Positions 2,281 to 50,827 of a stretch of DNA of 64,000 nucleotides are shown piece by piece; within the stretch, counting starts at the first letter, position 1; every line of letters starts with the position of its first letter. Made by a program: the position numbers and the translations under genes. This DNA is from a virus (taxonomy: Duplodnaviria > Heunggongvirae > Uroviricota > Caudoviricetes). Under the pieces are notes generated by a model. That model worked only from the letters and a program-made list of their open reading frames with translations. It was not told the DNA's origin and did no database searches. The stretch lies in IMG/VR virus record IMGVR_UViG_3300033463_000046; one strand, written 5' to 3'.

Positions 2281-2370
2281 TGGTTGGGATAGTAGGATTC
2301 GAACCCACACTTACGCCTTCAGAGGGCTACGGATTTAGAGTCCGCTGTGCTACCATTACACCATATCCCA
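2281..2370 (-). tRNA. suppressor tRNA, anticodon CTA (reads UAG); type II, about 20-nt variable arm; CCA encoded
   Basis: Reverse complement folds as acceptor tgggata/tatccca, D-stem gtgt/gcac, anticodon stem gcgga/tccgt with loop ctCTAaa, long variable arm, T-arm gtggg-ttcgaat-cctac, discriminator a, then cca. Confidence 0.8.
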
Positions 2371-2419
2371 GTATTCCGGTAGCAGAGCTACCGTAACTAC
2401 AAAAATACCTTCCAACAAA

Positions 2420-4899: not shown

Positions 4900-6165
4900 C
4901 TTTAAAATTAATTATTCACCAGTTACCATTATAATGCGTAACTTATCATTCTTAAGTCTCGTAAGAGAAACTGAGAATTGTTTTTCTCTCATTGAGAGAA
5001 CTTATGAATACCTACAATTTTACAACATGCCGAGAAACTCTAGTATCTTGGTAATTTGACCAGTTGCCAGGAGAAATTCATGAGTACAAATTGTCCCCAT
5101 CGCCTAGTAGGCGTTTTAGGCTAAAGAAGTCTTGGTCAACACAAGAGTGTTTGTGTAGACTCTGATGCCTAGGGGAATCGTTGGCAGAGAACTGCAGGTT
5201 GAAGTTGAGAATAGTATTCTTAATGAAGTAGCTAGGGGATGTGTGGTAGCGTACATGTCTTTGACTTAAACAGCTAGGAATTAACTTGTCAACACTCTGA
5301 CAATTATTTCCGAACTTCTCAATATGATAAGTGGTATCCTCATGACCGGCCACATTTAAAATGGTTTTAAGAGGTGTAGTAACTGAGAGAAGTAAATCTC
5401 CGGACTTGTAGAAACCGAAAGGGAGTATGTAAGGAGGACTCTTTGCCCAGAAGAGGATAATAAAACTTGGTTAGTCATTAGGACTGGGCTAAATGCACGG
5501 TTTATGATGCTGAAAGAGCCGTAGAGGCATAATGTTATAGACAAGAACATAGGAATTACCAACTCCGAAAATATTGTTTAGGAACATTACATTGAAAGCT
5601 AAGGTCTGTGGATTGCTGTAAAATGTCAACAATCCTACATCGTGGTTGATGGGAGACACAGAGAAACACAGACCAAATACCATTTTGCGTGCAGCGACCT
5701 TCAATGCGTCAAAGCACTTTCCCAAGACAAAGAGGAGCATAATTGGGAATGGTACTTAAATTGCCGTAAAATAAAGAAACGGAGCTTCGCGAGCGGGGAC
5801 CTACGCGCAACCAATCAATGGTATGCTGGCCATCATGGAAACCGCTCACTTTTCTTTGAAAGTATGTTCAAATAACATATTACTCCGATCCAAGTGATCT
5901 CCCTACTTCGGAGGATCCCGCGATTGCTTGCGTACGAAGGCTTTCTTGGGACGAAATGTGGTTATGGCTTTTCAACTACTGATGTAAGTCTTGTAAAAAG
6001 TGGAACTCCCGCCAAAAAAGAGGGCAGTAAGGACCAACTGGAAACTATCTGAGAACCATTTCGGGGCAGCCTTGAGCTGATACCGTTTGGCAGGTTGATG
6101 AACGTAAGGTTAGCTAGGTCTATTGGGAGGTGATGCTATTCCTCCCGCTTTTGTGAGAAACCAAA
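4900..6165 (+). ncRNA. candidate large structured non-coding RNA
   Basis: About 1.27 kb with no frame open beyond about 90 codons and all three stops in every frame. CTAG/TAGG-rich, GC about 45-50%. Ends with hairpin gggagg/cctccc plus gcttttgtg at 6125-6155. Confidence 0.3.
6125..6155 (+). terminator. intrinsic terminator
   Basis: gggagg-tgatgctatt-cctccc then gcttttgtg. Confidence 0.4.
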
Positions 6166-8700: not shown

Positions 8701-8731
8701 TAGTTTGATTAAATAATTTAACGTTAAAAAT

Positions 8732-10036
8732 ATGAAAGACAAGATTAAAGAGTTTAGAGACAAAAATCCTATATTGGATTTTGCAGCAGGCTTTATCCCA
8801 GGTGTGGGAGAAGCACAAGATGCTCATGATTTTGTACATGCTGCTAAAAAGAAAGACTTTGGAGGAATGGCATTAGCTTCTTTAGGTTTTATTATTCCAG
8901 GTGTAACTGGAGGACAATTCTTGAAGATACTTAGACCACTAACAAAAACATAGTGGGGAGCTTGGGCTGCTAAACATTTAGATGAGTTGTCTACTGTTAG
9001 ACCAAGACTTGCTGAAGGTGTTGCAAAAAATGAACCAGAAGCTGTAAAGATACATAAGACATTAGAAAAAATAGCTGATGGCAAAGTATATATTCCAGAA
9101 AAACGTGGCATTGTTAAAGATATTGACCCAGATACTCCTATTTTACCATTTGTAGATTAGAGAGGATATAACCTTACTCCTGAAGCTAGAGTAAATGCAG
9201 CTTTAGATTACGCTATAAGTACTGAAAAAGGGCGTGCTGTTCCTGGAATAATGGGAGGAGCAAAGGGAGTGCAAGGTGTAGAAGAATTAATACCAGGATT
9301 CCCAGCTTTTAAGAAAATAAATAATGTTAAAACTAGAATGGGACAATTCACTGGTGCTGACATTATTACTGCATTGTATTATAGTGGTCATGGTAAGATA
9401 AGATCTAGTAATGCTATATATGATGCTATTATGAAAGCTCCAGTATCTGGAAATGCTAAAGAATACGCCAAAGCTTAGTTAGAAGTTGTAGAAGGAATAC
9501 TATAGAAATACAGTAAAAACACTGATAAAGTTGGAGTGTTTAAAGCTACTAAATTAGCTAAGAAAGGTAGAGATAATGTTTCAGAAACAGAAAGAGCACA
9601 TTCATATGGTCTAATTCCAGATGAATTAGTTAATCCTAAAACTGATCAAGCTGTTAAAGATAGAATACATTTGGAAGAATCTTTAAACAATTTGAGTATA
9701 TGGTTTGGTTCTAAAAATGGTAATGGTGTTGCAGAATTTTATGGTCCTATTCCAATGAATTTATATTCTGGAAGTTATGGAGGAAAGAAATTTGGAGGTA
9801 GTGGTGATCATAAATTATTTGGATTTAATAATTCTATATTAGTAAAGAATTAGGATGATCTTGCAATACATATTGCTAATTCTAAAGATAAAACTATGGG
9901 ATTGGTAACTGATATTTAGGATGGTGCTGGTGTGACAAATGACGTAATATTCTAGCCATATAGGTATAGTTTAATAAGACAAAAGAAAGGTGGTCGGATT
10001 TGCCTAACTACTTCGAAGAAGCGAGGACCGTTTTAA
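8732..10036 (+). CDS. hypothetical protein carrying 8 in-frame TAG codons (amber read-through gene)
   Basis: Track ORFs 8732-8953, 9251-9478 and 9536-9853 are collinear in one frame, separated only by TAG triplets. The frame runs to TAA at 10034-10036 (1302 nt = 434 codons from 8732). The C-terminal 60 codons are less certain. Confidence 0.5.
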
Positions 10037-11330: not shown

Positions 11331-11333
11331 AAG

Positions 11334-11407
11334 AGTCGTTTAGCTCAATTGGTAGGAGCGCAACACTATTAATGTTGAGGCCGTCAGTTCAAGTCTGACA
11401 ACGAATT
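11334..11407 (+). tRNA. tRNA, Asn-like body with anticodon loop ctATTaa (anticodon ATT, atypical)
   Basis: Acceptor agtcgtt/aacgaat (one G-A mismatch), D-arm gctc-aattggta-gagc, anticodon stem caaca/tgttg, T-arm gtcag-ttcaagt-ctgac. Paralogous to tRNAs at 23372 and 30165. Confidence 0.6.
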
Positions 11408-11409
11408 AG

Positions 11410-14564: not shown

Positions 14565-14845
14565 CTAACTTTTATGTGGTATAGTGTAAGGGTAGTCTTA
14601 CATTATCTGGATAATGTTAAAATGGGTATAGTTACATGAGATAAGAGTAGTCCAGAATGCTCCTCTGAAGTTATGTACCTTGAAGATGTAGCACGATATG
14701 AGCGTATGCTCATATTGAGAGAGTTCGAGTCTCTCTACCACAACTAGATAATAGAAGTTAAACATTTAAAATAGTTATAATTATGAAGAAGTATTTACGA
14801 AAACGCTTGTTAGGTTACACCGAGATCTAACAGCTCCAATCGTAT

Positions 14846-14936
14846 ATCGGTAAGTGCGTGGAAACAGGCGGATTACATCGGGCTTTTAACCCGAATAGCA
14901 GGGTTCGACTCCCTGTTGGAGCACAAATCAACTCCT
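14846..14936 (+). tRNA. atypically long (91 nt) tRNA-Lys(TTT)-like gene with about 19 extra nt in the D region
   Basis: Perfect acceptor gctccaa/ttggagc; anticodon arm tcggg-ctTTTaa-cccga; T-arm caggg-ttcgact-ccctg. 36 nt lie between acceptor and anticodon stem where 17 are expected. Confidence 0.45.
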
Positions 14937-15532: not shown

Positions 15533-15960
15533 CTATAATTTATGATGTATGATACGTAGAATTACAGAAGTTCGAGAAACTACTATTTATGTCGGAGACA
15601 AGCTGATAGTAGTGAAAGAAGAAGTCCACACAATTAGGATTCTTCCAGACACACCCGAGGATTAGCTGCATCTTCCTCGTTAAAATCGCGATGTAGCCGC
15701 AGAGATCCGGCACTGGTGTTAAGCGTCCGGTCATTCTTCGACCAGAATTTTCTTTTGAAATAAAGAAGCTGGCAGAGCTCAAAAGAGTGAATGCCTCTAG
15801 GATGGTAACCTGGAGGCTTTTTCTTTGAAAGTCTGATTTTGCTCATAATAGGTTGGAAAAGTTGAGAATTATCTATAATATCGCATGATATATCAATAGA
15901 TAATTTCTCAACTATTCCGGATTCATGTTGAGAACTAAATTAATTAAACGTTTAATTATT

Positions 15961-17190
15961 ATGAATGAAATTTAGAAATTTAAGCAAGGAAGAAAAGTAC
16001 TTTCTGCTAAATTCGGTGACAATTTTAAAAGAGTTGGCACAGCAAGTAATGGTTTATCTGGTATATATTTCAATCCTGACGATAATCAATTATGGAAAGG
16101 TGGATTAACTGGATATAGTAGAATAGGAGATACATATAGTTATTATTCAGGATTAGGAGGAGGTGTTATTAAAGCTTCTGACTACATTGAAAAGCCTAAG
16201 ACAGGAGTTACTACAAGAACTTCTAGTAATCCAGGTGAAATAGTAGTTAATGGTAAAAGATACGCCTCGAAAGCTGATTGGGTAAAAGAACAAAGAGCAC
16301 AAAGAGAACAACAACCATAGGAAGTAGTAATAACTGGTAGGGCTGGTAAAAGATCTGCTTCTAAAGTCACACCAAGAGGTCAGGGATATTGGGATAAACA
16401 ATACCAAGATTTCTTAGGTAAGATGACTGACGATTAGAAAGCGTGGTTAGCATAGAGAGGTATTGATTATAATTCTGCTCAACAAATGCAAACTTATTTA
16501 GCTAATCATGGTCAAGATCTTGGTAAATGGGGTGCTGATGGTAAATGGGCAGGTGCTTCCCAAGCAGCTTGGGATAATTTCGTTGCAACAACAATGAAGA
16601 ATAATCCTTTACAAACTCCTGTAAGAGATCCACAACCTACAGTTGAACCAGTAGTTGATGCTGCAGACCCATTCGGATATAAGACATCTAATCATTATGG
16701 TGATGGCTTTGCTTTAAAGAATATGGGATTCAGTAATTATGCTGGATTACAAAAATTTGCTATGGGTGATGATCAATTTGCTAAAGACTTACGTGAAAGA
16801 TTTGGTCAAGATGTAAGTCAGTGGGATCAAGCAGCTGTAGAAGGCGCATTGAATGTAAGTGGTCGTTATCGTGGTGGTAGAAGTGGCGACTTTGGTGATA
16901 TGGCTCGTAGTATGCAAGATTGGGCTGCTAAGAAAAATGCTGCATATGATCAAAAAGAATTAGCTTCTAGAACTGGTGCAAGTGGTACAACATATTCTTC
17001 TCCAGAAATGATGAAGAAATTTGAGAGTATTAAAATATCCCCAGAAGTTAAATATGGTTAGAGTACTAAGTTTGATTTTAGTAATATGAAGTTTAATTCT
17101 GGATTTGGTAATACTGGCACTAATACTCTTGGAGATGCTGGGGCAGGTACTATGAACAATCAAAAACAATTAGCATATGCGGATAAGTAA
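15961..17190 (+). CDS. peptidoglycan-binding-domain protein with in-frame TAG codons (recoded)
   Basis: One frame from ATG 15961 through track ORF 16486-17061 to TAA at 17188. In-frame TAG at codon 5 and four more. Motif MQTYLANHGQDLGKWGADGKWAGASQAAWDNFV resembles PG_binding_1. Confidence 0.5.
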
Positions 17191-18235
17191 ATTACAATAC
17201 GGAAATTCACTTTTGGAGGCAAGTAATCGACAAAGAGGAAAAGTTCAAGCTTGGGGTAATAGAGGTATTCAGCAAGTTGGTATGCAAGCTAAACAAGCTG
17301 AAGAAGAAGTTATTCAATATAAAAAAGCTACTGCTCGTGCTAATAAGAAGACAAAGACTCCTATGTAGTCAAATAACTTGGCTAAACTTCAAGACCAATT
17401 ATGGAGAATTGGAGCATTCAAAGGAGTTAAAGATAGAAGAGGAAATGAATCTACATACTAGACTGCTGTTGATGGTATCAAAGGTAATATGACCAATACT
17501 GCTATTGCTAATGCTCAGAAAATGGGTTTCACTATTAACAATGATGGTAGTCTTAGTAAGACATCTGATACATCATCAAAAGTCACAAGTACTGCTAAAA
17601 CACCAGAATAGTCTTCTAAAAAGACTAGATTTATGACATCTAGTGGTCCAATGATGCCTGCTCAAGTAATGGCACAAGCTTCAGAAGCTATTGCTAATAA
17701 CAAGACACTACAAAATACTGCAGACTTCTTAGGACATAATCCTGCTGCTATGGCTTTAGAAGATTTAGATAGAGCTACTTCAAACCGTTTAGCTGAATCA
17801 TTATTTGGTATAAGACCTTTCAAAGGTAGAACTGTTACTCGTTTACCTAATCTATAGACTGAGGAATTAAAGAAATAGGTTTTATTTGCTAGAAGTAAAG
17901 GTTAGAATAACTTTAATTCTGATATGTATAAAGCTATGTATGGTTATAATTATGCGTCTCGTAATGGAAAAGGTGGACAAGATAGAAGTGGATTTTGGAA
18001 TAGAATGGATACTCCTACGGGACGTCTTGAGCATACATTAGGTGCTTATGGTTTTTATGTAGATAATAATGGTGACACAATAGTTGAGGATACATACGAT
18101 TTTAATGTTGGACAAAAATAGGGAGGAGATGGAAGATATGCTGTAACCCGTAATTTCTTAGGAGAATTCGGAAGCAAATCTACTGATCCTAACGAGGGTA
18201 AAATCAAATATAGGATTAATTTAGGTAAATTATGA
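17177..18235 (+). CDS. peptidoglycan-binding-domain protein with multiple in-frame TAG codons (recoded)
   Basis: Track ORFs 17177-17368, 17633-17857 and 17924-18121 share one frame and are separated only by TAGs; the frame ends at TGA 18233-18235. LQDQLWRIGAFKG...DGIKGNMTNTAIANAQKMGF is PG_binding_1-like. Confidence 0.5.
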
Positions 18236-18928: not shown

Positions 18929-18962
18929 GGTAGCCATTCGTGAGAACAGCTACCTTATTTTT
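18929..18962. terminator. bidirectional intrinsic terminator
   Basis: ggtagc-cattcgtgagaaca-gctacc flanked by an A-run upstream and ttattttt downstream. Sits between the convergent tRNA array and the amidase gene. Confidence 0.6.
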
Positions 18963-19556
18963 GTAAGTATTTTAAAATACCTTCAACATGAAGTCTTACA
19001 ATATCTTGAAAACCTCTGTCACTAAGGAGATAATCAACATCTGATTTATTATCTTGGAAGAAGTTTTCAGTAAGAACAGCAGGACAAATAGTATGTTTAA
19101 GAACATATAAATGTGCTTCCTTATCTGGATCTCCATCAGAAAAATCAGTGCGCATTCTTTTATCTTGTGCATTATATTTGGCAGCATTATACAAACAGGT
19201 AGCTAAATCATCTGCTTTTGTTTTACCAGGAGTAGTATAAACTTCCCAGCCTGTTCCAGTGTGCCATTTACCATCTGATGATGCAGCATTAACATGAATA
19301 CTTACATATATGCAATCCCCATATACTTTGCATAAATCATTTACAACCTTACAACGTAGACAAAGTTCCTATGATTGAGTAACATTTAAATCATCATCTT
19401 CAATGTCTATAAATACCTAATAACCATAATCCTATAGGATTGCTTTTACTGCTGCAACAATTTCTCTAGAATAAGCGTATTCTTTAAGTCTTTTGTCTGG
19501 TGAACATTTACCAGGTGTACTTTTTAAATGTGCAGTACCTAAAATAATTGTTTTCA
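18955..19556 (-). CDS. N-acetylmuramoyl-L-alanine amidase (Amidase_3-like endolysin) with 3 in-frame TAG codons
   Basis: Minus-strand ATG at 19556. MKTIILGTAHLKSTPGKCSPDKRLKEYAYSREIVAAVKAIL-x-DYGY-x-VFID...VSIHVNAASSDGKWHTGTGWEVYTTPGKTKADD..., where x marks a TAG. This continues into track ORF 18955-19194 and ends at TAA. Shows the Amidase_3 blocks. Confidence 0.75.
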
Positions 19557-19642
19557 TAGTAAAATAGTTATTTAATTTGTTTAACATAAATCTGAATACT
19601 AAATTAGTCAAAATTGTCTCTAACTAAAAATTATTTATTATT

Positions 19643-19861
19643 ATGATAGGAATTTATGTAATAGGAGTCGTTTTAACATTTATTATATCTATTGCTCTTT
19701 GTCGGTATGATGAAAAAAGATATAATAGCGACATGCAATATGAAATGTGTGCTGCAATCTCTCTATTCTCATGGATAGGATTAATAGGATTAGCAATAGC
19801 ATATAGAAATGAAATAAGAACAGTTCTGAGGACACGTAAGTGTAGCAATGTACCACGTTAA
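19643..19861 (+). CDS. small membrane protein
   Basis: 72 aa with two TM-like segments. Confidence 0.45.
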   Translation: MIGIYVIGVVLTFIISIALCRYDEKRYNSDMQYEMCAAISLFSWIGLIGLAIAYRNEIRTVLRTRKCSNVPR

Positions 19862-35865: not shown

Positions 35866-36102
35866 ATGGAGGTAAATAATCGAATTGTAGAAATTCTTAA
35901 AGACAAATTGATGGTTGATGAAATCAGCTCTGATGATAATTTAATAATTGATCTGAAAGCAGATAGTCTTGACATAATCGAGTTAGTCATGGAATTAGAA
36001 CATGAATTTGATATTGTTATCTTAGACGAAGAAGTAGATCCTAACTTTGATAGTGTAGGTCATTTAATAGATTTCATACAAACCAAAGTAAATAACAAAT
36101 AA
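35866..36102 (+). CDS. acpP: acyl carrier protein
   Basis: 78 aa, acidic, with motif DLKADSLDIIELVMELEHEFDIVILDEE containing the phosphopantetheine-attachment DSL. Confidence 0.75.
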   Translation: MEVNNRIVEILKDKLMVDEISSDDNLIIDLKADSLDIIELVMELEHEFDIVILDEEVDPNFDSVGHLIDFIQTKVNNK

Positions 36103-36209
36103 TGGAAAATATAATTAATATTAACGAACCTTGTATTCAAGATCTTATAATCCAGAAAGGAGAATAGGATTTATGTCTTACGACAAAAGATGGTCAAATT
36201 GAGTATAAA

Positions 36210-38168
36210 TTGTTTTTAGGTGACAAAGATTCGGTGATGTTAACTCTCAACTTTGGAGATGTCTCCAGTATAGGTTGGGGTGGTACAGATAACTGGGGTA
36301 AAGATAAGCTTCCTCTATACTTAGAAAGTAATAAAGGTGCTGAGAATTATGACAGTGTATTTGTTGATAATATCACTATTCAGGAGTATGCCGGAGAAGG
36401 AAATTGGTGTAAATGCGAACTTATAAATAAAGGTAAAACGGTTCATTACGTGGCTGTAAACGAAAATCGATTGGATAAGGAACGCGTAGCATATTTCTGG
36501 CATACTACTACTGACTCTGTAGTTAATAATGGATTTAATAAAGGAAAACCAGTTGCAAAGAAATGGTGTGTGACTGTTATTCAAAATCCAGGAAAAGCAC
36601 AAGAATAGCCAAAAGAAGAAGAAAAGAAAGTTGATCTCGGAAAATATCTTTATTCAGTAGGATTATTATCGGATTTACATATTTGTAAAGCTAATAATAA
36701 TGATTCGTTAAACTGGTGGGATGAAGATGACTTTAAGAGAGCAATGAATTTATATGTAAATGATAAAAATATTAAGTTTATTGCATCTTGTGGTGATATT
36801 TCCGAAGCACAAACTAATGATAATATTAAACACCCAGAATCAACAGCAGAAACTGATTATGCTGAGTTTACAGAAATGTATGATGTACCTTATTGGCAAG
36901 TAGCAGGATTAAGATTCTTTAGTCCATTAGGTAATCATGATTTCTATGGAATGTTTGAAGGTAGACAAGGAGACACAATAACTAAAAAGAAAAACTCAGA
37001 AACTATAAACGGTTACAATGCTGGAGTAAAAGAACGTATAGGTAATTGGATTACAGGACAACAAATAAATGGAATTGTTCCAGGTAGAGGAAGAATTCAA
37101 TTTGAACTTGAGAATGGTAAGAGTACTGCAAATGGTCAAGCAGATATGAGATTCTTCTCATATAACGATTATGTAGACTTGTACGCAAAAGAAAATGGTT
37201 ATACAGGTTCAATATGGGATTCTTCTAAAGGTGGAATATCTGACAAAGCAATCGAAACTGCAAAGAAATATGTCAATAGTAATTGGAATAAAGTAAAAGA
37301 CAATTTAACTATGTGGAATGATGGCGGAGGTCACGGTCGTAATGGTTATTCTAAATTAAACTATTGGATGAAAAAAGACAATGATATTTACATATTCTTA
37401 TCAGTAGATTATGGCGATGATATATGGGGCATTAAAAGTGGTTGGCATGATAGAATGATTCATGCAAGAACTATTATTAATCTTAATGAAGATGATCCAT
37501 ATGTCAAGAGAATGAAAGAGTATGTTGGAGATACTGGTTATTCAAAAGCTGATGAAGCTTATAACTATCAGTATTATAGTCCTAACACTCTTATATGGTT
37601 GAAGGAACTTCTTGAGAATAATAAGGATAAGAAGATTTACATCTTCACTCATCACTTTATGCCTAATCGTGTTGGTAATGGTGTTGGACTTGCTAAAGAT
37701 GGAAATTGGTATTACTCTGTAATCAATCCTGATGGAGTAAAAGAGAATGGTTATAATAAGGGATCTAATGCATTAACTGGTATTGAGTTCTGGTTTATTG
37801 ATAAGCTTATGAATCAATATAATAATGTGATATGGTTCAGTGGTCATTCTCATATAAGTTTTGCATCTGGTGCTAACTTTGATAATCATGATTACTCTAT
37901 AGTAAATCCATCTGAGAAAAGTGAATATGTATATACTAAGAGTAATACAATTCCAACTAAAGAATCAGCATGGTGTGTAGCACTTCCATCACTTTCTAAA
38001 CCAAGAGGTATTGATAATGGTCAATCAGTAAGACATTATGAAGATGCTGAAATGGGTATTATGGAAGTATATGAGAAAGGTGTTAAGATAAAAGGATATA
38101 AAATCCGAGAAAATAACAAAGATGTCAACGAGTTACTTGTTGAAAAAGAAATTCAATTAATCAATTAA
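36210..38168 (+). CDS. calcineurin-like metallophosphoesterase with N-terminal extension; one in-frame TAG (recoded)
   Basis: Track ORFs 36210-36608 and 36744-38168 are in the same frame (534 nt apart), joined through TAG 36606-36608. The connecting segment encodes GLLSDLHI (motif I). Downstream: GNHDF and GHSH motifs. Confidence 0.6.
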
Positions 38169-38943: not shown

Positions 38944-39015
38944 GATCGTATAGCTCAATGATAGAGCAGCGGTCCTCAAAACCGAAGGTTTAGGGTTTGA
39001 ATCCCTATACGATCA
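38944..39015 (+). tRNA. tRNA with anticodon loop ccTCAaa (anticodon UCA, reads UGA/UGG); candidate opal suppressor or Trp-UCA
   Basis: Acceptor gatcgta/tacgatc, D gctc-aatgata-gagc, anticodon stem cggt/accg (4 bp), T-arm taggg-tttgaat-cccta. Position 33 is C. Confidence 0.6.
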
Positions 39016-39094
39016 CTCCCCACTGTGAAGTGGCATCTCCTTTCATTAAAAACAAATGTCACTAAATTTCTCGGGACTCAGAGGAGTCCCACTT

Positions 39095-48787: not shown

Positions 48788-49369
48788 GGTCTTCCTATTA
48801 AATGGGGCTGACAGGATTAGACGGATAATGAAGGTAATAAGAACATGCAAAGGCTGTATGGAAAGACATACAAATCAATTAAATGGCAAGAACAATGTTT
48901 CTTTCGCCATCACAAGCTACAGAGTAGCTGCGTGAGGCGTGGGGTCGTGATTAACCCTATCATCCAATAATCACAAAGTCTACGATTCTCAGTGTCTCCG
49001 ACTATAAACACAGCAACTGAGTGGTGGCAGGTGCGACTTCGGTCAATCCCCCAGTCATTGCCTAAGACTTTAAAAAAGGCACTGGTGAAGAAAACACTCC
49101 AAATTGAAAAGCATGTACAATTCTTATAGAATAGTTGTTGCGGACGGCGGTTCGATTCCGCCCAGTTCCACTCCTGTGATCTGACGGAGCATGCGGTCAC
49201 TAAAAGGCATGCGTCAATTCTCACTTAGACTCAAGAAGTGATAGGTTGTACAACTGAAGGGAATGAATTTTTTGCAGGTAAGGAAACCGCCATCTCAAGT
49301 TTTCTAATCTATAAATCATAAAACTAGAGAAAAGGGTAAGTAGGTGTACGGGACACCTACGTAAATATA

Positions 49370-50708: not shown

Positions 50709-50780
50709 CTGGCCCTTTGTGTAATGGTTAGCACACGGGACTTTGACTCCCGTAGTACAGGTTCGAATCCTGTAGGGCCA
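50709..50780 (+). tRNA. tRNA-Gln (TTG)
   Basis: Acceptor tggccct/agggcca (U1-A72), D gtgt-aatggtta-gcac, anticodon arm cggga-ctTTGac-tcccg, T-arm acagg-ttcgaat-cctgt. Confidence 0.85.
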
Positions 50781-50827
50781 ACGTTCTGTTTGAACATAGG
50801 TTTTAAGTTTTTAGTTATTTATTTGCG

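What the first reader, a model, noticed from the sequence alone, without database searches (positions are those of the whole stretch)
2281..2370. Suppressor tRNA (anticodon CUA) with a long variable arm
A well-formed tRNA on the minus strand has anticodon loop ctCTAaa, cognate to UAG. Its D-arm (gtgt-aatggta-gcac) and U1-A72 acceptor resemble the window's tRNA-Gln(TTG) at 50709-50780. It nevertheless has a 20-nt variable arm, which in bacteria is restricted to Leu, Ser and Tyr tRNAs. The amino acid inserted at TAG is therefore not obvious from the sequence. CCA is genomically encoded.
Basis: seen in the sequence. Interest (0 to 1): 0.8.

Follow-up and report, generated by a model that had tools for sequence, protein, structure and literature searches.

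The report
Amber suppressor tRNA with two anticodon arms
This phage tRNA reads the stop codon TAG as glutamine, and its odd "long variable arm" is a leftover second anticodon hairpin that still displays the normal glutamine anticodon, a design shared by dozens of related phages and apparently not described before.

Summary
ARAGORN and Rfam (64.2 bits) call a 90-nt tRNA at 2281-2370 (-) with anticodon CUA, U1-A72, A73, an encoded CCA and a 20-nt variable region.

The amino acid can be inferred, and it is glutamine. In DNA-level alignments of the window's TAG-interrupted late genes with orthologues, TAG alternates with CAA/CAG. Three invariant columns hold only TAG, CAA or CAG. A self-calibrated likelihood over 276 TAG sites puts Gln more than 200 lnL units ahead of any other residue.

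With the insert removed, the body is closest to the window's own tRNA-Gln(UUG).

The arm is not a class-II variable arm. It is a 3-bp hairpin whose 7-nt loop, CUCUGAA, is a canonical tRNA-Gln(CUG) anticodon loop. It sits exactly 5+4 nt before the T stem.

- Deleting the CUA hairpin in silico gives a tRNA-Gln call in 24 of 31 family members.
- In a scan that did not constrain the arm, 16 of 17 long-arm CUA tRNAs carry this loop.
- Similar two-arm designs exist for UGA/Trp and AUA/Ile tRNAs.

The likely purpose of the arm, which is inferred and untested, is to keep the cognate anticodon available to the glutamine-charging enzymes. TAG-to-Gln recoding is known. I found no description of this architecture in the library I could search.

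The parts
2281..2370 (-). Whole tRNA gene (90 nt including the encoded CCA at 2281-2283). It has five arms: acceptor, D, CUA arm, CUG arm and T.
   Evidence: ARAGORN; Rfam tRNA 64.2 bits; minimum-free-energy fold; covariation in 26 relatives.
2329..2345 (-). Decoding anticodon arm (H1): GCGGA-CUCUAAA-UCCGU. The anticodon CUA is at 2336-2338.
   Evidence: Sequence. The helix is 100% paired with changes on both sides at all 4 counted pairs. The loop is invariant in the family. In some relatives a group I intron interrupts this loop.
2315..2327 (-). Extra arm (H2): GCC-CUCUGAA-GGC. This is a truncated tRNA-Gln anticodon stem-loop, with CUG at 2320-2322.
   Evidence: All 31 unique relatives have a Y-Y-CUG/UUG-A-R type loop. 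The G-C to U-A change at the outer pair is compensatory. The loop end lies 9 nt before the T stem in 28 of 31. Deleting H1 gives a tRNA-Gln call.
2309..2314 (-). GUAAGU tail. The first two nt are the unpaired remains of the old 3' stem strand (A.G and U.U layers). The last four are the class-I variable loop, comparable to UAGU in the window's tRNA-Gln.
50710..50782 (+). tRNA-Gln(UUG), the closest paralogue of the suppressor body in the window (U1-A72, A73, near-identical D arm).
   Evidence: alignment score 30 against at most 22 for every other window tRNA.
18955..19557 (-). N-acetylmuramoyl-L-alanine amidase gene with 3 in-frame TAG codons. It is a client of the suppressor.
   Evidence: Pfam Amidase_3, E = 9e-19. 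Codon alignments.
17177..18235 (+). Late gene of unknown function with 7 in-frame TAG codons. Three of them lie in invariant columns where relatives have CAA or CAG.
15904..17190 (+). TAG-interrupted ORF (5 TAG) with a peptidoglycan-binding-like repeat. The start codon is uncertain.
8732..10036 (+). TAG-interrupted ORF (7 TAG), function unknown.
36096..38168 (+). Metallophosphoesterase-like ORF. Two TAGs lie in its N-terminal extension. The standard-code ATG at 36744 would lie downstream of the 'LLSDLH' stretch that I read as the first metal-binding motif. No Pfam family matched this protein. Whether the TAGs are inside the real gene was not settled.
   Evidence: no Pfam hit.

Best explanation
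The element is a phage-encoded amber suppressor tRNA descended from tRNA-Gln. Its 5-bp anticodon arm carries CUA. On the ribosome it reads UAG in a subset of late and lysis genes, namely the amidase and three neighbouring ORFs. The rest of the window is written without in-frame TAG.

The tRNA inserts glutamine. This step is shown at codon level.

Its 20-nt 'variable arm' is the remnant of a second anticodon stem-loop. The gene is a tRNA-Gln(CUG) with two anticodon arms in tandem. The 5' copy became CUA, which is one transition away from CUG, and kept a full stem. The 3' copy kept the Gln anticodon loop (C/U-U-CUG-A-A/G) and its exact spacing to the T arm, but its stem shrank to 2-3 Watson-Crick pairs plus A.G and U.U layers. 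This is shown by comparative anatomy. The origin, either duplication of the arm or a deletion between tandem paralogues, is inferred.

The reason the loop is conserved is inferred and not tested. The two hairpins leave the same junction, so either could stack under the D stem. The CUG loop could therefore offer the glutamine-charging machinery (GlnRS, or non-discriminating GluRS plus GatCAB) the anticodon it needs. This would compensate for the loss of G36 in the decoding arm. Any decoding by the CUG arm would still give Gln.
For: 1. It is a real tRNA.

2. TAG is a sense codon in 4-5 window genes. ORFs of 350-440 aa appear only when TAG is read through. One of them is a Pfam Amidase_3 protein.

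3. TAG means Gln, from DNA-level evidence:
- The amidase motif ENFF[TAG]DNK in L005-L011 aligns with CAA/CAG Gln in the window and in most of the other aligned homologues; three have Met.
- A likelihood test with substitution frequencies taken from the same alignments, over 276 TAG sites, puts Gln first, Lys at -215 lnL, and Leu, Ser and Tyr below -426.
- In the window's own genes, 10 of 16 TAG sites have a CAA/CAG partner.
- Three invariant columns contain only TAG, CAA or CAG.
- CAA, which is two mutations away from TAG, is the commonest partner codon, 44 of the counted codons.

4. The body is Gln-type:
- With the insert removed it aligns best to the window's tRNA-Gln(UUG), score 30 against at most 22 for the others.
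- The 1-72 pair is U-A, or a mismatch in 8 of 26 relatives.

5. The arm is a Gln anticodon arm:
- The loop 7-mers in 31 unique relatives are CTCTGAA (19), TTCTGAG (5), CCCTGAA (3), CTTTGAA, TTCTGAA, TGCTGAG and GGCTGAC.
- CTCTGAA and TTCTGAG also occur as real anticodon loops of phage tRNA-Gln(CUG) in L156 and L158.
- The loop end lies 9 nt before the T stem in 28 of 31.
- Deleting the 17-nt CUA hairpin makes ARAGORN call tRNA-Gln(CTG/TTG) of 71-76 nt in 24 of 31.

6. Sampling bias was checked. A scan constrained only on CTCTAAA, a 26-34-nt gap and GGTTCGA returned 17 long-arm CUA tRNAs. Sixteen have this loop and one is an ordinary class-II type.

7. There are parallel designs:
- UCA tRNAs with a second arm carrying the Trp anticodon CCA. 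Deleting the first arm gives tRNA-Trp in 4 of 6.
- A UAU tRNA-Ile with a GAU extra arm, found without any constraint on the arm.

8. In some alleles a group I intron sits in the CUA loop, the usual site for tRNA introns. This marks that arm as the working anticodon arm.
Against: - No experimental data exist. Charging, maturation and decoding are all inferred.
- The window is only part of a genome of roughly 180-190 kb. Another CUA tRNA could lie outside it. Relatives L003, L196, L220, L232 and L292 carry a normal-length CUA tRNA next to the long one, and L005 and L011 have a normal-length one at the amidase locus. The long-arm form is therefore not indispensable for TAG recoding.
- For the identity-mimic idea, a 2-3-bp stem is a poor anticodon arm. 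In the canonical fold a variable-region hairpin points away from where the anticodon-binding domain of a class I synthetase sits.
- The host, and so the charging route, is unknown. MAG bin labels point mostly to Bacillota, many of which lack GlnRS.
- Family members are phylogenetically related, so loop conservation is not a set of independent events.
- Members L140-L169 were found with a pattern that forced TGA in the loop.
- The Trp examples were found with a pattern that forced the CCA loop.
- Six of the 16 aligned window TAG sites have no Gln partner. They lie in variable columns holding K, R, E, N and A.
Confidence: 0.8

Rival explanations
1. A class-II-type suppressor. The long arm would recruit SerRS, LeuRS or TyrRS, so that TAG is read as Ser, Leu or Tyr.
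For: Bacterial long variable arms are otherwise confined to Leu, Ser and Tyr tRNAs (established knowledge). A73 fits Leu and Tyr. A Tyr GUA anticodon is one change away from CUA. A real class-II-type CUA tRNA does exist in another phage contig, L280.
Against: - Codon evidence favours Gln by more than 400 lnL units over Ser, Leu and Tyr.
- No conserved TAG column aligns with Ser, Leu or Tyr codons.
- The D arm is class-I and near-identical to that of tRNA-Gln. Alignment scores to the window's Leu, Tyr and Ser tRNAs are 15.5, 12 and 10.5, against 30 for Gln.
- The arm has 3 bp and a 7-nt anticodon-type loop, followed by 6 unpaired nt.
Confidence: 0.03
2. It is really a tRNA-Gln(CUG) that reads CAG. 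The CUA hairpin would be the supernumerary arm, inserted between positions 26 and 27, and another tRNA would read TAG.
For: Deleting the CUA hairpin leaves a canonical tRNA-Gln in 24 of 31 members. The 3' side of the CUG arm is in perfect register. Several genomes carry a separate normal-length CUA tRNA.
Against: - The CUA arm has a full 5-bp stem with compensatory changes and an invariant CUCUAAA loop. The CUG arm is reduced to 2-3 pairs.
- ARAGORN, the Rfam model and the minimum-free-energy fold all take the CUA arm as the anticodon arm.
- Group I introns interrupt the CUA loop.
- The family sits in TAG-recoded phages, and the window holds no other CUA tRNA.
Confidence: 0.07
3. The extra arm is a neutral relic of a duplication or fusion event and has no present function.
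For: The stem has decayed, with A.G in layer 4 in 18 of 31 members and U.U in layer 5 in 13 of 31. The 5' linker varies from 3 to 8 nt. Normal-length suppressors appear to suffice in related phages.
Against: - Loop positions 35-37 (U, G, A) are invariant and position 34 is C or U in all 31 unique sequences. Meanwhile the acceptor, D, anticodon and T stems have all turned over.
- The single change at position 34, in L001, gives UUG, which is still a Gln anticodon.
- The architecture recurs with Trp and Ile anticodons.
Confidence: 0.3
4. A pyrrolysine tRNA, as ARAGORN labels it.
For: Only the CUA anticodon.
Against: - It has none of the tRNA-Pyl hallmarks, which I recall as a 6-bp anticodon stem, a 3-nt variable loop, a 5-nt D loop, one nucleotide between the acceptor and D stems, and no G18G19 or T-psi-C.
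- This tRNA has 5 bp, 20 nt, 7 nt, two nucleotides, GG and TTCGAAT respectively.
- No Pyl genes were seen among 56 window ORFs.
- TAG aligns with Gln codons.
Confidence: 0.005

Closest known systems
Phage-encoded Sup-tRNA(CUA) of TAG-recoded (code 15) gut phages (Borges et al., bioRxiv 10.1101/2021.08.26.457843; Peters et al., PMC9523058)
   Same: It is a phage tRNA with anticodon CUA. TAG is read as Gln. Recoding is confined to late, structural and lysis genes while the rest of the genome is compatible with the standard code. No dedicated synthetase was seen in the window, so host enzymes are presumed to charge it.
   Different: The papers I could read do not mention any extra arm in these tRNAs. 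This tRNA and at least 30 distinct relatives carry a second, Gln-anticodon hairpin in the variable region.
E. coli supE (tRNA-Gln with anticodon CUA) and glutamine mischarging of amber suppressors by GlnRS (textbook knowledge, from memory)
   Same: It has a tRNA-Gln body, a weak 1-72 pair, G2-C71/G3-C70, G10, and a CUG-to-CUA change that gives Gln insertion at UAG.
   Different: supE is a plain 75-nt class-I tRNA. It loses G36 as an identity element and is a poorer GlnRS substrate. Here the lost anticodon is retained in cis on a second hairpin.
Class-II tRNAs (Leu, Ser, Tyr) with long variable arms
   Same: A stem-loop emerges between the anticodon arm and the T arm. Total length is about 85-93 nt.
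   Different: Class-II arms have loops of variable sequence and a characteristic D arm. Here the D arm is class-I, the arm loop is a conserved 7-nt anticodon loop, and the spacing to the T stem equals a stem strand plus a 4-nt variable loop.
allo-tRNAs and other irregular tRNAs (Mukai et al., PMC5389517)
   Same: They are non-canonical tRNAs from metagenomes and phages. Some are natural nonsense suppressors with long variable arms.
   Different: allo-tRNAs have 8/4 or 9/3 acceptor/T geometry and Ser (or Ala) identity conferred by the arm. This tRNA is 7/5, has Gln identity, and its arm derives from an anticodon arm.
tRNA genes with group I introns in the anticodon loop
   Same: Some alleles of this family (L143, L157) have an insert of roughly 175 nt in the CUA loop that matches Rfam Intron_gpI (40.4 bits, E = 4.6e-9, below the gathering score of 50).
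   Different: The window copy has no intron. The 17-nt extra arm is not an intron.

Membership tests
tRNA (Rfam RF00005) | Cloverleaf with a 7-bp acceptor stem, D arm with G18G19, 5-bp anticodon stem with a 7-nt loop, and T arm with T-psi-C. Score above the gathering threshold. | tested here: met
   64.2 bits against a gathering score of 29; ARAGORN call; 94% of pair cells paired in 26 relatives.
Amber suppressor of a TAG-to-Gln (code 15) phage | Anticodon CUA together with in-frame TAG codons in otherwise intact genes of the same genome. | tested here: met
   There are 4-5 genes with 2-8 in-frame TAGs, and no in-frame TAG in most of the large ORFs.
Amber suppressor of a TAG-to-Gln (code 15) phage | TAG positions correspond to Gln in homologues. 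| tested here: met
   DNA-level codon alignments. Protein-database homologues were excluded because they were pre-translated with TAG = Q.
Amber suppressor of a TAG-to-Gln (code 15) phage | Gln actually incorporated at UAG (proteomics). | not testable with these tools
   This needs LC-MS/MS of infected material, as in PMC9523058.
tRNA-Gln identity set (E. coli GlnRS paradigm, from memory) | Weak U1-A72 pair. | tested here: met
   U1-A72 in the window. The 1-72 position is unpaired in 8 of 26 relatives.
tRNA-Gln identity set (E. coli GlnRS paradigm, from memory) | G73 discriminator. | tested here: not met
   The window has A73, as does its own tRNA-Gln(UUG). Many relatives have G73.
tRNA-Gln identity set (E. 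coli GlnRS paradigm, from memory) | G2-C71, G3-C70 and G10. | tested here: met
   Present in the window copy. Positions 2-71 and 3-70 vary in relatives.
tRNA-Gln identity set (E. coli GlnRS paradigm, from memory) | Anticodon Y34-U35-G36 with A37. | tested here: inconclusive
   The decoding arm has C34-U35-A36, so G36 is lost. The extra arm displays C-U-G-A in a 7-nt loop. Whether an enzyme reads that loop is untested.
Class-II tRNA (Leu/Ser/Tyr) | Class-II D arm, body similarity to Leu, Ser or Tyr tRNAs, and a variable arm with a non-conserved loop. | tested here: not met
   The D arm is near-identical to that of tRNA-Gln, with one fewer D-loop base. Scores are 30 for Gln against 15.5, 12 and 10.5 for Leu, Tyr and Ser. 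The arm loop is conserved.
tRNA-Pyl | 6-bp anticodon stem, 3-nt variable loop, small D loop without GG, one nucleotide between the acceptor and D stems, and pyl genes nearby. | tested here: not met
   Sequence. No such Pfam families among 56 ORFs.
allo-tRNA / tRNA-Sec-like | 8/4, 9/3 or 8/5 acceptor/T-stem geometry. | tested here: not met
   7/5 geometry.

The most novel reading that the evidence does not exclude
A class of 'two-anticodon-arm' tRNAs may exist. When a mobile element needs a tRNA whose decoding anticodon is one the cognate synthetase would reject, it keeps the cognate anticodon loop on a second hairpin at the same junction. Examples are CUA for Gln, UCA for Trp and UAU for Ile. 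The second hairpin would act as a cis identity element, possibly by swapping which hairpin stacks on the D stem. Identity and decoding would then be physically separated on one tRNA.
Probability: 0.35. Interest if true: 0.9.

Novelty: new variant of a known kind. Interest (0 to 1): 0.78.

Why it matters
Phages that reassign stop codons face a known problem. The synthetases for Gln and Trp read the anticodon, so a suppressor tRNA is a poor substrate. Published surveys leave open how these tRNAs get charged.

A conserved second hairpin that still shows the cognate anticodon offers a concrete and testable answer.

- It is a natural example of separating tRNA identity from decoding, which is what genetic-code engineers try to build.
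- It matters for annotation. These genes can be called Sup, Pyl or SeC, or Gln or Trp with an insertion, depending on the tool.
- Protein databases already hold many homologues silently translated with TAG = Q. Residue-level inference of the code from those proteins is therefore circular.

Tried and rejected
**Searches that found nothing useful**
- PDB homologues of the amidase were too distant to be informative at the TAG columns.
- tblastn of two recoded proteins against 50,697 phage records gave no match.
- The search for related loci for the 17156-18235 protein family found nothing in three attempts. These used a single sequence in viral contigs, an alignment in viral contigs and an alignment in JGI metagenomes. 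The family was reachable only through ENA and Logan contigs.

**Evidence discarded**
- The protein-level alignment with database homologues looked decisive, with Q in every homologue at three TAG columns. I dropped it as circular once look-up of encoding contigs showed that those proteins do not translate from their DNA under the standard code.

**Features looked for around the tRNA and not found**
- No theta or HDV-like ribozyme or other Rfam family within 2150-2500.
- No promoter or terminator signal above shuffle expectation.
- No synthetase, amidotransferase or release-factor domains in 56 window ORFs.
- TGA recoding in the window is not supported, because many ORFs end in TGA.

**Readings rejected**
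- The Pyl, class-II and allo-tRNA readings were rejected on anatomy.

**Literature**
- Searches for two-anticodon-arm or long-arm Gln suppressors found nothing relevant. Only open-access papers and bioRxiv preprints were searched.

Full report
**1. Observation**

ARAGORN finds 35 RNA genes in the window, 34 tRNAs and a tmRNA. One is a 90-nt tRNA at 2281-2370 on the minus strand with anticodon CTA. The Rfam tRNA model scores it at 64.2 bits (gathering score 29) and places a 17-nt insertion in the variable region.

Read directly, the gene is: TGGGATA TG GTGT AATGGTA GCAC A GCGGA CTCTAAA TCCGT AGCCCTCTGAAGGCGTAAGT GTGGG TTCGAAT CCTAC TATCCCA A CCA.

- U1-A72, A73 and an encoded CCA;
- a Gln-like D arm;
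- a 20-nt variable region.

The minimum-free-energy fold is a five-arm cloverleaf.

**2. Context**

The window has 37% G+C and looks like part of a large phage genome. It has a long tRNA array, a tmRNA, a chaperonin, helicases and RNase H.

Most large ORFs contain no in-frame TAG. Five become long only when TAG is read through:
- 8717-10036 (7 TAG);
- 15904-17190 (5 TAG);
- 17156-18235 (8 TAG);
- the amidase at 18955-19653 (-), a Pfam Amidase_3 protein with E = 9e-19;
- possibly the metallophosphoesterase-like ORF at 36096-38168.

TGA is not recoded. This matches the published picture of TAG recoding confined to late and lysis genes (10.1101/2021.08.26.457843).

**3. Which amino acid**

A trap had to be avoided first. 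Database homologues of the 17156-18235 protein show Q at every TAG column. However, the look-up of encoding contigs reports that those proteins do not translate from their own DNA. The DNA has TAG at many of those Qs. The gene caller had therefore already assumed TAG = Q. I used DNA only from then on.

- **Amidase family, 80 IMG/VR loci.** The motif ENFF-X-DNK has TAG in L005-L011. In the window and in most of the other aligned homologues it has a genuine Gln codon; three have Met.
- **All-against-all ORF comparison of these loci.** Substitution frequencies were taken from the same alignments. Over 276 TAG sites Gln is the best fit. Lys is at -215 lnL, and Leu, Ser and Tyr are below -426.
- **The window's own genes against six related phages.**
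  - Ten of 16 aligned TAG sites have a CAA or CAG partner.
  - Three invariant columns (LPNL-X, ELKK-X, QK-X-GG) contain only TAG, CAA or CAG.
  - In many columns the window has CAA where relatives have TAG.
  - CAA is two substitutions from TAG and is the commonest partner codon (44 counts), so mutational proximity does not explain the pattern.

TAG is therefore read as glutamine.

**4. What kind of tRNA**

With the 17-nt insert removed, the body aligns best to the window's own tRNA-Gln(UUG) at 50710-50782. The score is 30, against at most 22 for the other window tRNAs and 10-15.5 for Leu, Tyr and Ser.

Relatives were first found by exact matches to the D arm and anticodon arm. They keep the body while their acceptor stems turn over with compensatory changes. 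Position 1 is U or A. The 1-72 pair is U-A, or a mismatch in 8 of 26 relatives. A weak first pair is typical of tRNA-Gln (textbook knowledge).

The ARAGORN 'Pyl' label reflects the anticodon only. None of the tRNA-Pyl features is present.

**5. The arm is a second anticodon arm**

The hairpin is GCC-CUCUGAA-GGC. Its 7-nt loop has the form of an anticodon loop (Y32, U33, CUG, A37, R38) and carries the Gln anticodon CUG.

I collected 31 distinct long-arm sequences.
- The loops are CTCTGAA (19), TTCTGAG (5), CCCTGAA (3), TTCTGAA, TGCTGAG and GGCTGAC. L001 has CTTTGAA, which is UUG, also a Gln anticodon.
- CTCTGAA and TTCTGAG are also the real anticodon loops of phage tRNA-Gln(CUG) genes in L156 and L158.
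- The distance from the loop end to the T stem is 9 nt in 28 of 31 members. That equals a 5-nt stem strand plus a 4-nt class-I variable loop.
- The 5' side varies from 3 to 8 nt.
- The two inner stem layers are always Watson-Crick, and the third is in 23 of 31. The fourth is A.G in 18 of 31 and the fifth is U.U in 13 of 31.
- The outer pair changes from G-C to U-A in a compensatory way.
- In L092 either hairpin can be removed to leave a canonical 72-nt tRNA.
- Deleting the 17-nt CUA hairpin in silico makes ARAGORN call tRNA-Gln(CTG/TTG) of 71-76 nt in 24 of 31 members, the window copy included.

The gene is therefore a tRNA-Gln with two anticodon arms in tandem. The 5' arm became CUA, one transition from CUG. 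The 3' arm kept its loop but lost most of its stem.

**6. Sampling bias**

The pattern used forced TGA in the loop. Of the 17 long-arm CUA tRNAs it returned, 16 have the Gln-type loop in register. One, L280, is an ordinary class-II type.

Within the family the central loop positions are as conserved as the universal tRNA positions, while every stem has diverged. Sequences are related, so this counts lineages and not independent events.

**7. Which arm decodes**

The CUA arm is the working anticodon arm, for these reasons:
- It has a full 5-bp stem that is 100% paired, with changes on both sides at all counted pairs, and an invariant loop.
- Every predictor takes it as the anticodon arm.
- In some alleles (L143, L157) an insert of roughly 175 nt that matches Rfam Intron_gpI interrupts exactly this loop (40.4 bits, E = 4.6e-9, below the gathering score of 50). 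This is the usual site of tRNA group I introns.

**8. Why keep the second loop**

This part is inferred. GlnRS relies heavily on U35 and G36, and CUA suppressors lose G36 (textbook knowledge). The two hairpins emerge from the same junction, so either could stack on the D stem. The A.G and U.U layers would give the CUG arm the length of a normal 5-layer stem. The CUG loop could then serve as a cis identity element for the glutamine-charging enzymes. Decoding by that arm would in any case still insert Gln.

Two further observations fit this idea:
- **tRNA-Ile(UAU) in L240.** It was found with no constraint on its arm and has an extra arm GCGC-CAGATTA-GCGC in the same register. Deleting the UAU hairpin gives tRNA-Ile(GAT).
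- **tRNA(UCA) genes in metagenomes.** They have a class-I body with G73, or A1-U72 with G73, and a second arm whose loop is the Trp anticodon loop CUCCAAA or UUCCAAA. L348 and L374 have complete 5-bp second arms. Deleting the UCA hairpin gives tRNA-Trp(CCA) in 4 of 6. Several of these loci gain long-ORF coverage when TGA is read as sense.

The Trp set was retrieved with a pattern that required the CCA loop. It shows that such genes exist, not how common they are.

Points against the idea:
- The stem is short.
- In the canonical fold a variable-region hairpin points away from the synthetase's anticodon-binding domain.
- The host is unknown. GTDB MAG contigs carrying the tRNA are mostly labelled Bacillota or Erysipelotrichaceae. 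Many Bacillota use GluRS plus GatCAB rather than GlnRS.
- Related phages manage with, or additionally carry, a normal-length CUA tRNA.

**9. Comparison with what is known**

TAG-to-Gln recoding with phage suppressor tRNAs is established (PMC9523058). None of the papers I could read mentions an extra arm in these tRNAs, or natural tRNAs with two anticodon arms. allo-tRNAs (PMC5389517) are a different design. The searchable library excludes most subscription journals, so the claim of novelty is provisional.

**10. Verdict**

It is a Gln-type amber suppressor, but the amino acid is determinable (Gln), and the arm is a vestigial Gln anticodon arm rather than a class-II arm.
- The recoding system is known. 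The five-arm architecture, its breadth and its possible role in tRNA identity appear to be new.

Noticed in passing
window 38944-39016 (+): A 73-nt tRNA with anticodon TCA, which ARAGORN labels 'SeC', would read UGA. Yet many window ORFs end in TGA, and reading TGA through creates no convincing long genes. Its loop is CCUCAAA, with C rather than U at position 33.
   Followed up: partly
window 14833-14924 (+): A 92-nt tRNA-like element that ARAGORN calls tRNA-Ala(GGC). Rfam scores it at only 26.4 bits, below the gathering score of 29, and takes TCGGG-CTTTTAA-CCCGA (Lys UUU) as the anticodon arm. About 20 extra nt sit where the D arm should be. The fold z-score is -3.65. It may be another tRNA with an inserted arm, or a decayed gene.
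   Followed up: partly
window 11333-11408 (+): A tRNA-Asn with anticodon ATT (A34), which is unusual for bacteria and phages. The relative L085 has the same gene.
   Followed up: no
window 48804-49171 (+): A phage-encoded tmRNA with tag peptide GKNNVSFAITSYRVAA sits inside the tRNA array.
   Followed up: no
window 2376-2390 (-): A perfect 6-bp hairpin, GGTAGC-TCT-GCTACC, ends 5 nt upstream of the tRNA 5' end. It is not followed by a T run. It could be a processing signal or the end of the upstream ORF's transcript.
   Followed up: no
L143 7561-7830; L157 around 5565-5790: These are intron-bearing alleles of the long-arm CUA tRNA. The 5' half ends ...CCGGTCTCTA. About 175 nt follow that match Rfam Intron_gpI (40.4 bits, E = 4.6e-9, below the gathering score of 50). 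The gene then resumes with AAACCGT and the CUG arm. Intron-less alleles of the same tRNA exist in L145 and L167.
   Followed up: partly
L240 6110-6201: A 92-nt tRNA-Ile(TAT) whose extra arm is GCGC-CAGATTA-GCGC, carrying the Ile anticodon GAT in canonical register. Deleting the UAU hairpin gives an ARAGORN call of tRNA-Ile(GAT), 75 nt.
   Followed up: partly
L348, L374, L303, L371, L407, L388, L321, L306 (metagenome contigs): These are tRNA(UCA) genes with Trp-type acceptor ends and a second arm whose loop is the Trp anticodon loop. L348 and L374 have complete 5-bp second arms. They were retrieved with a pattern that forced the CCA loop, so their prevalence is unknown.
   Followed up: partly
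L003 5232-5319 and 9226-9298; L196 270-438; L220 3019-3613; L232 1226-1394; L292 387-553: Long-arm and normal-length CUA tRNAs occur together in one genome. In L196, L232 and L292 they lie only 3-5 nt apart.
   Followed up: partly
L280 2334-2420: A class-II-type CUA tRNA with a long D loop, a 5-bp variable arm with a GCGA loop, and G73. Some phage may read TAG with a Ser-like tRNA.
   Followed up: no
Proteins P0001-P0022 and their contigs L085-L090, L134-L139: The large protein database stores these phage proteins translated with TAG = Q, and the encoding DNA has TAG at many Q positions. Any inference of the code from those protein sequences is circular.
   Followed up: yes
L164 9820-9897 and 10129-10203; L143 7110-7174; L157 6612-6679: Rfam finds two RAGATH-1 hammerhead ribozymes, a 'cow-rumen-4' RNA and a 'skipping-rope' RNA near the tRNA arrays of related phages. 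The cow-rumen-4 match hints at a rumen or gut origin for the clade.
   Followed up: no
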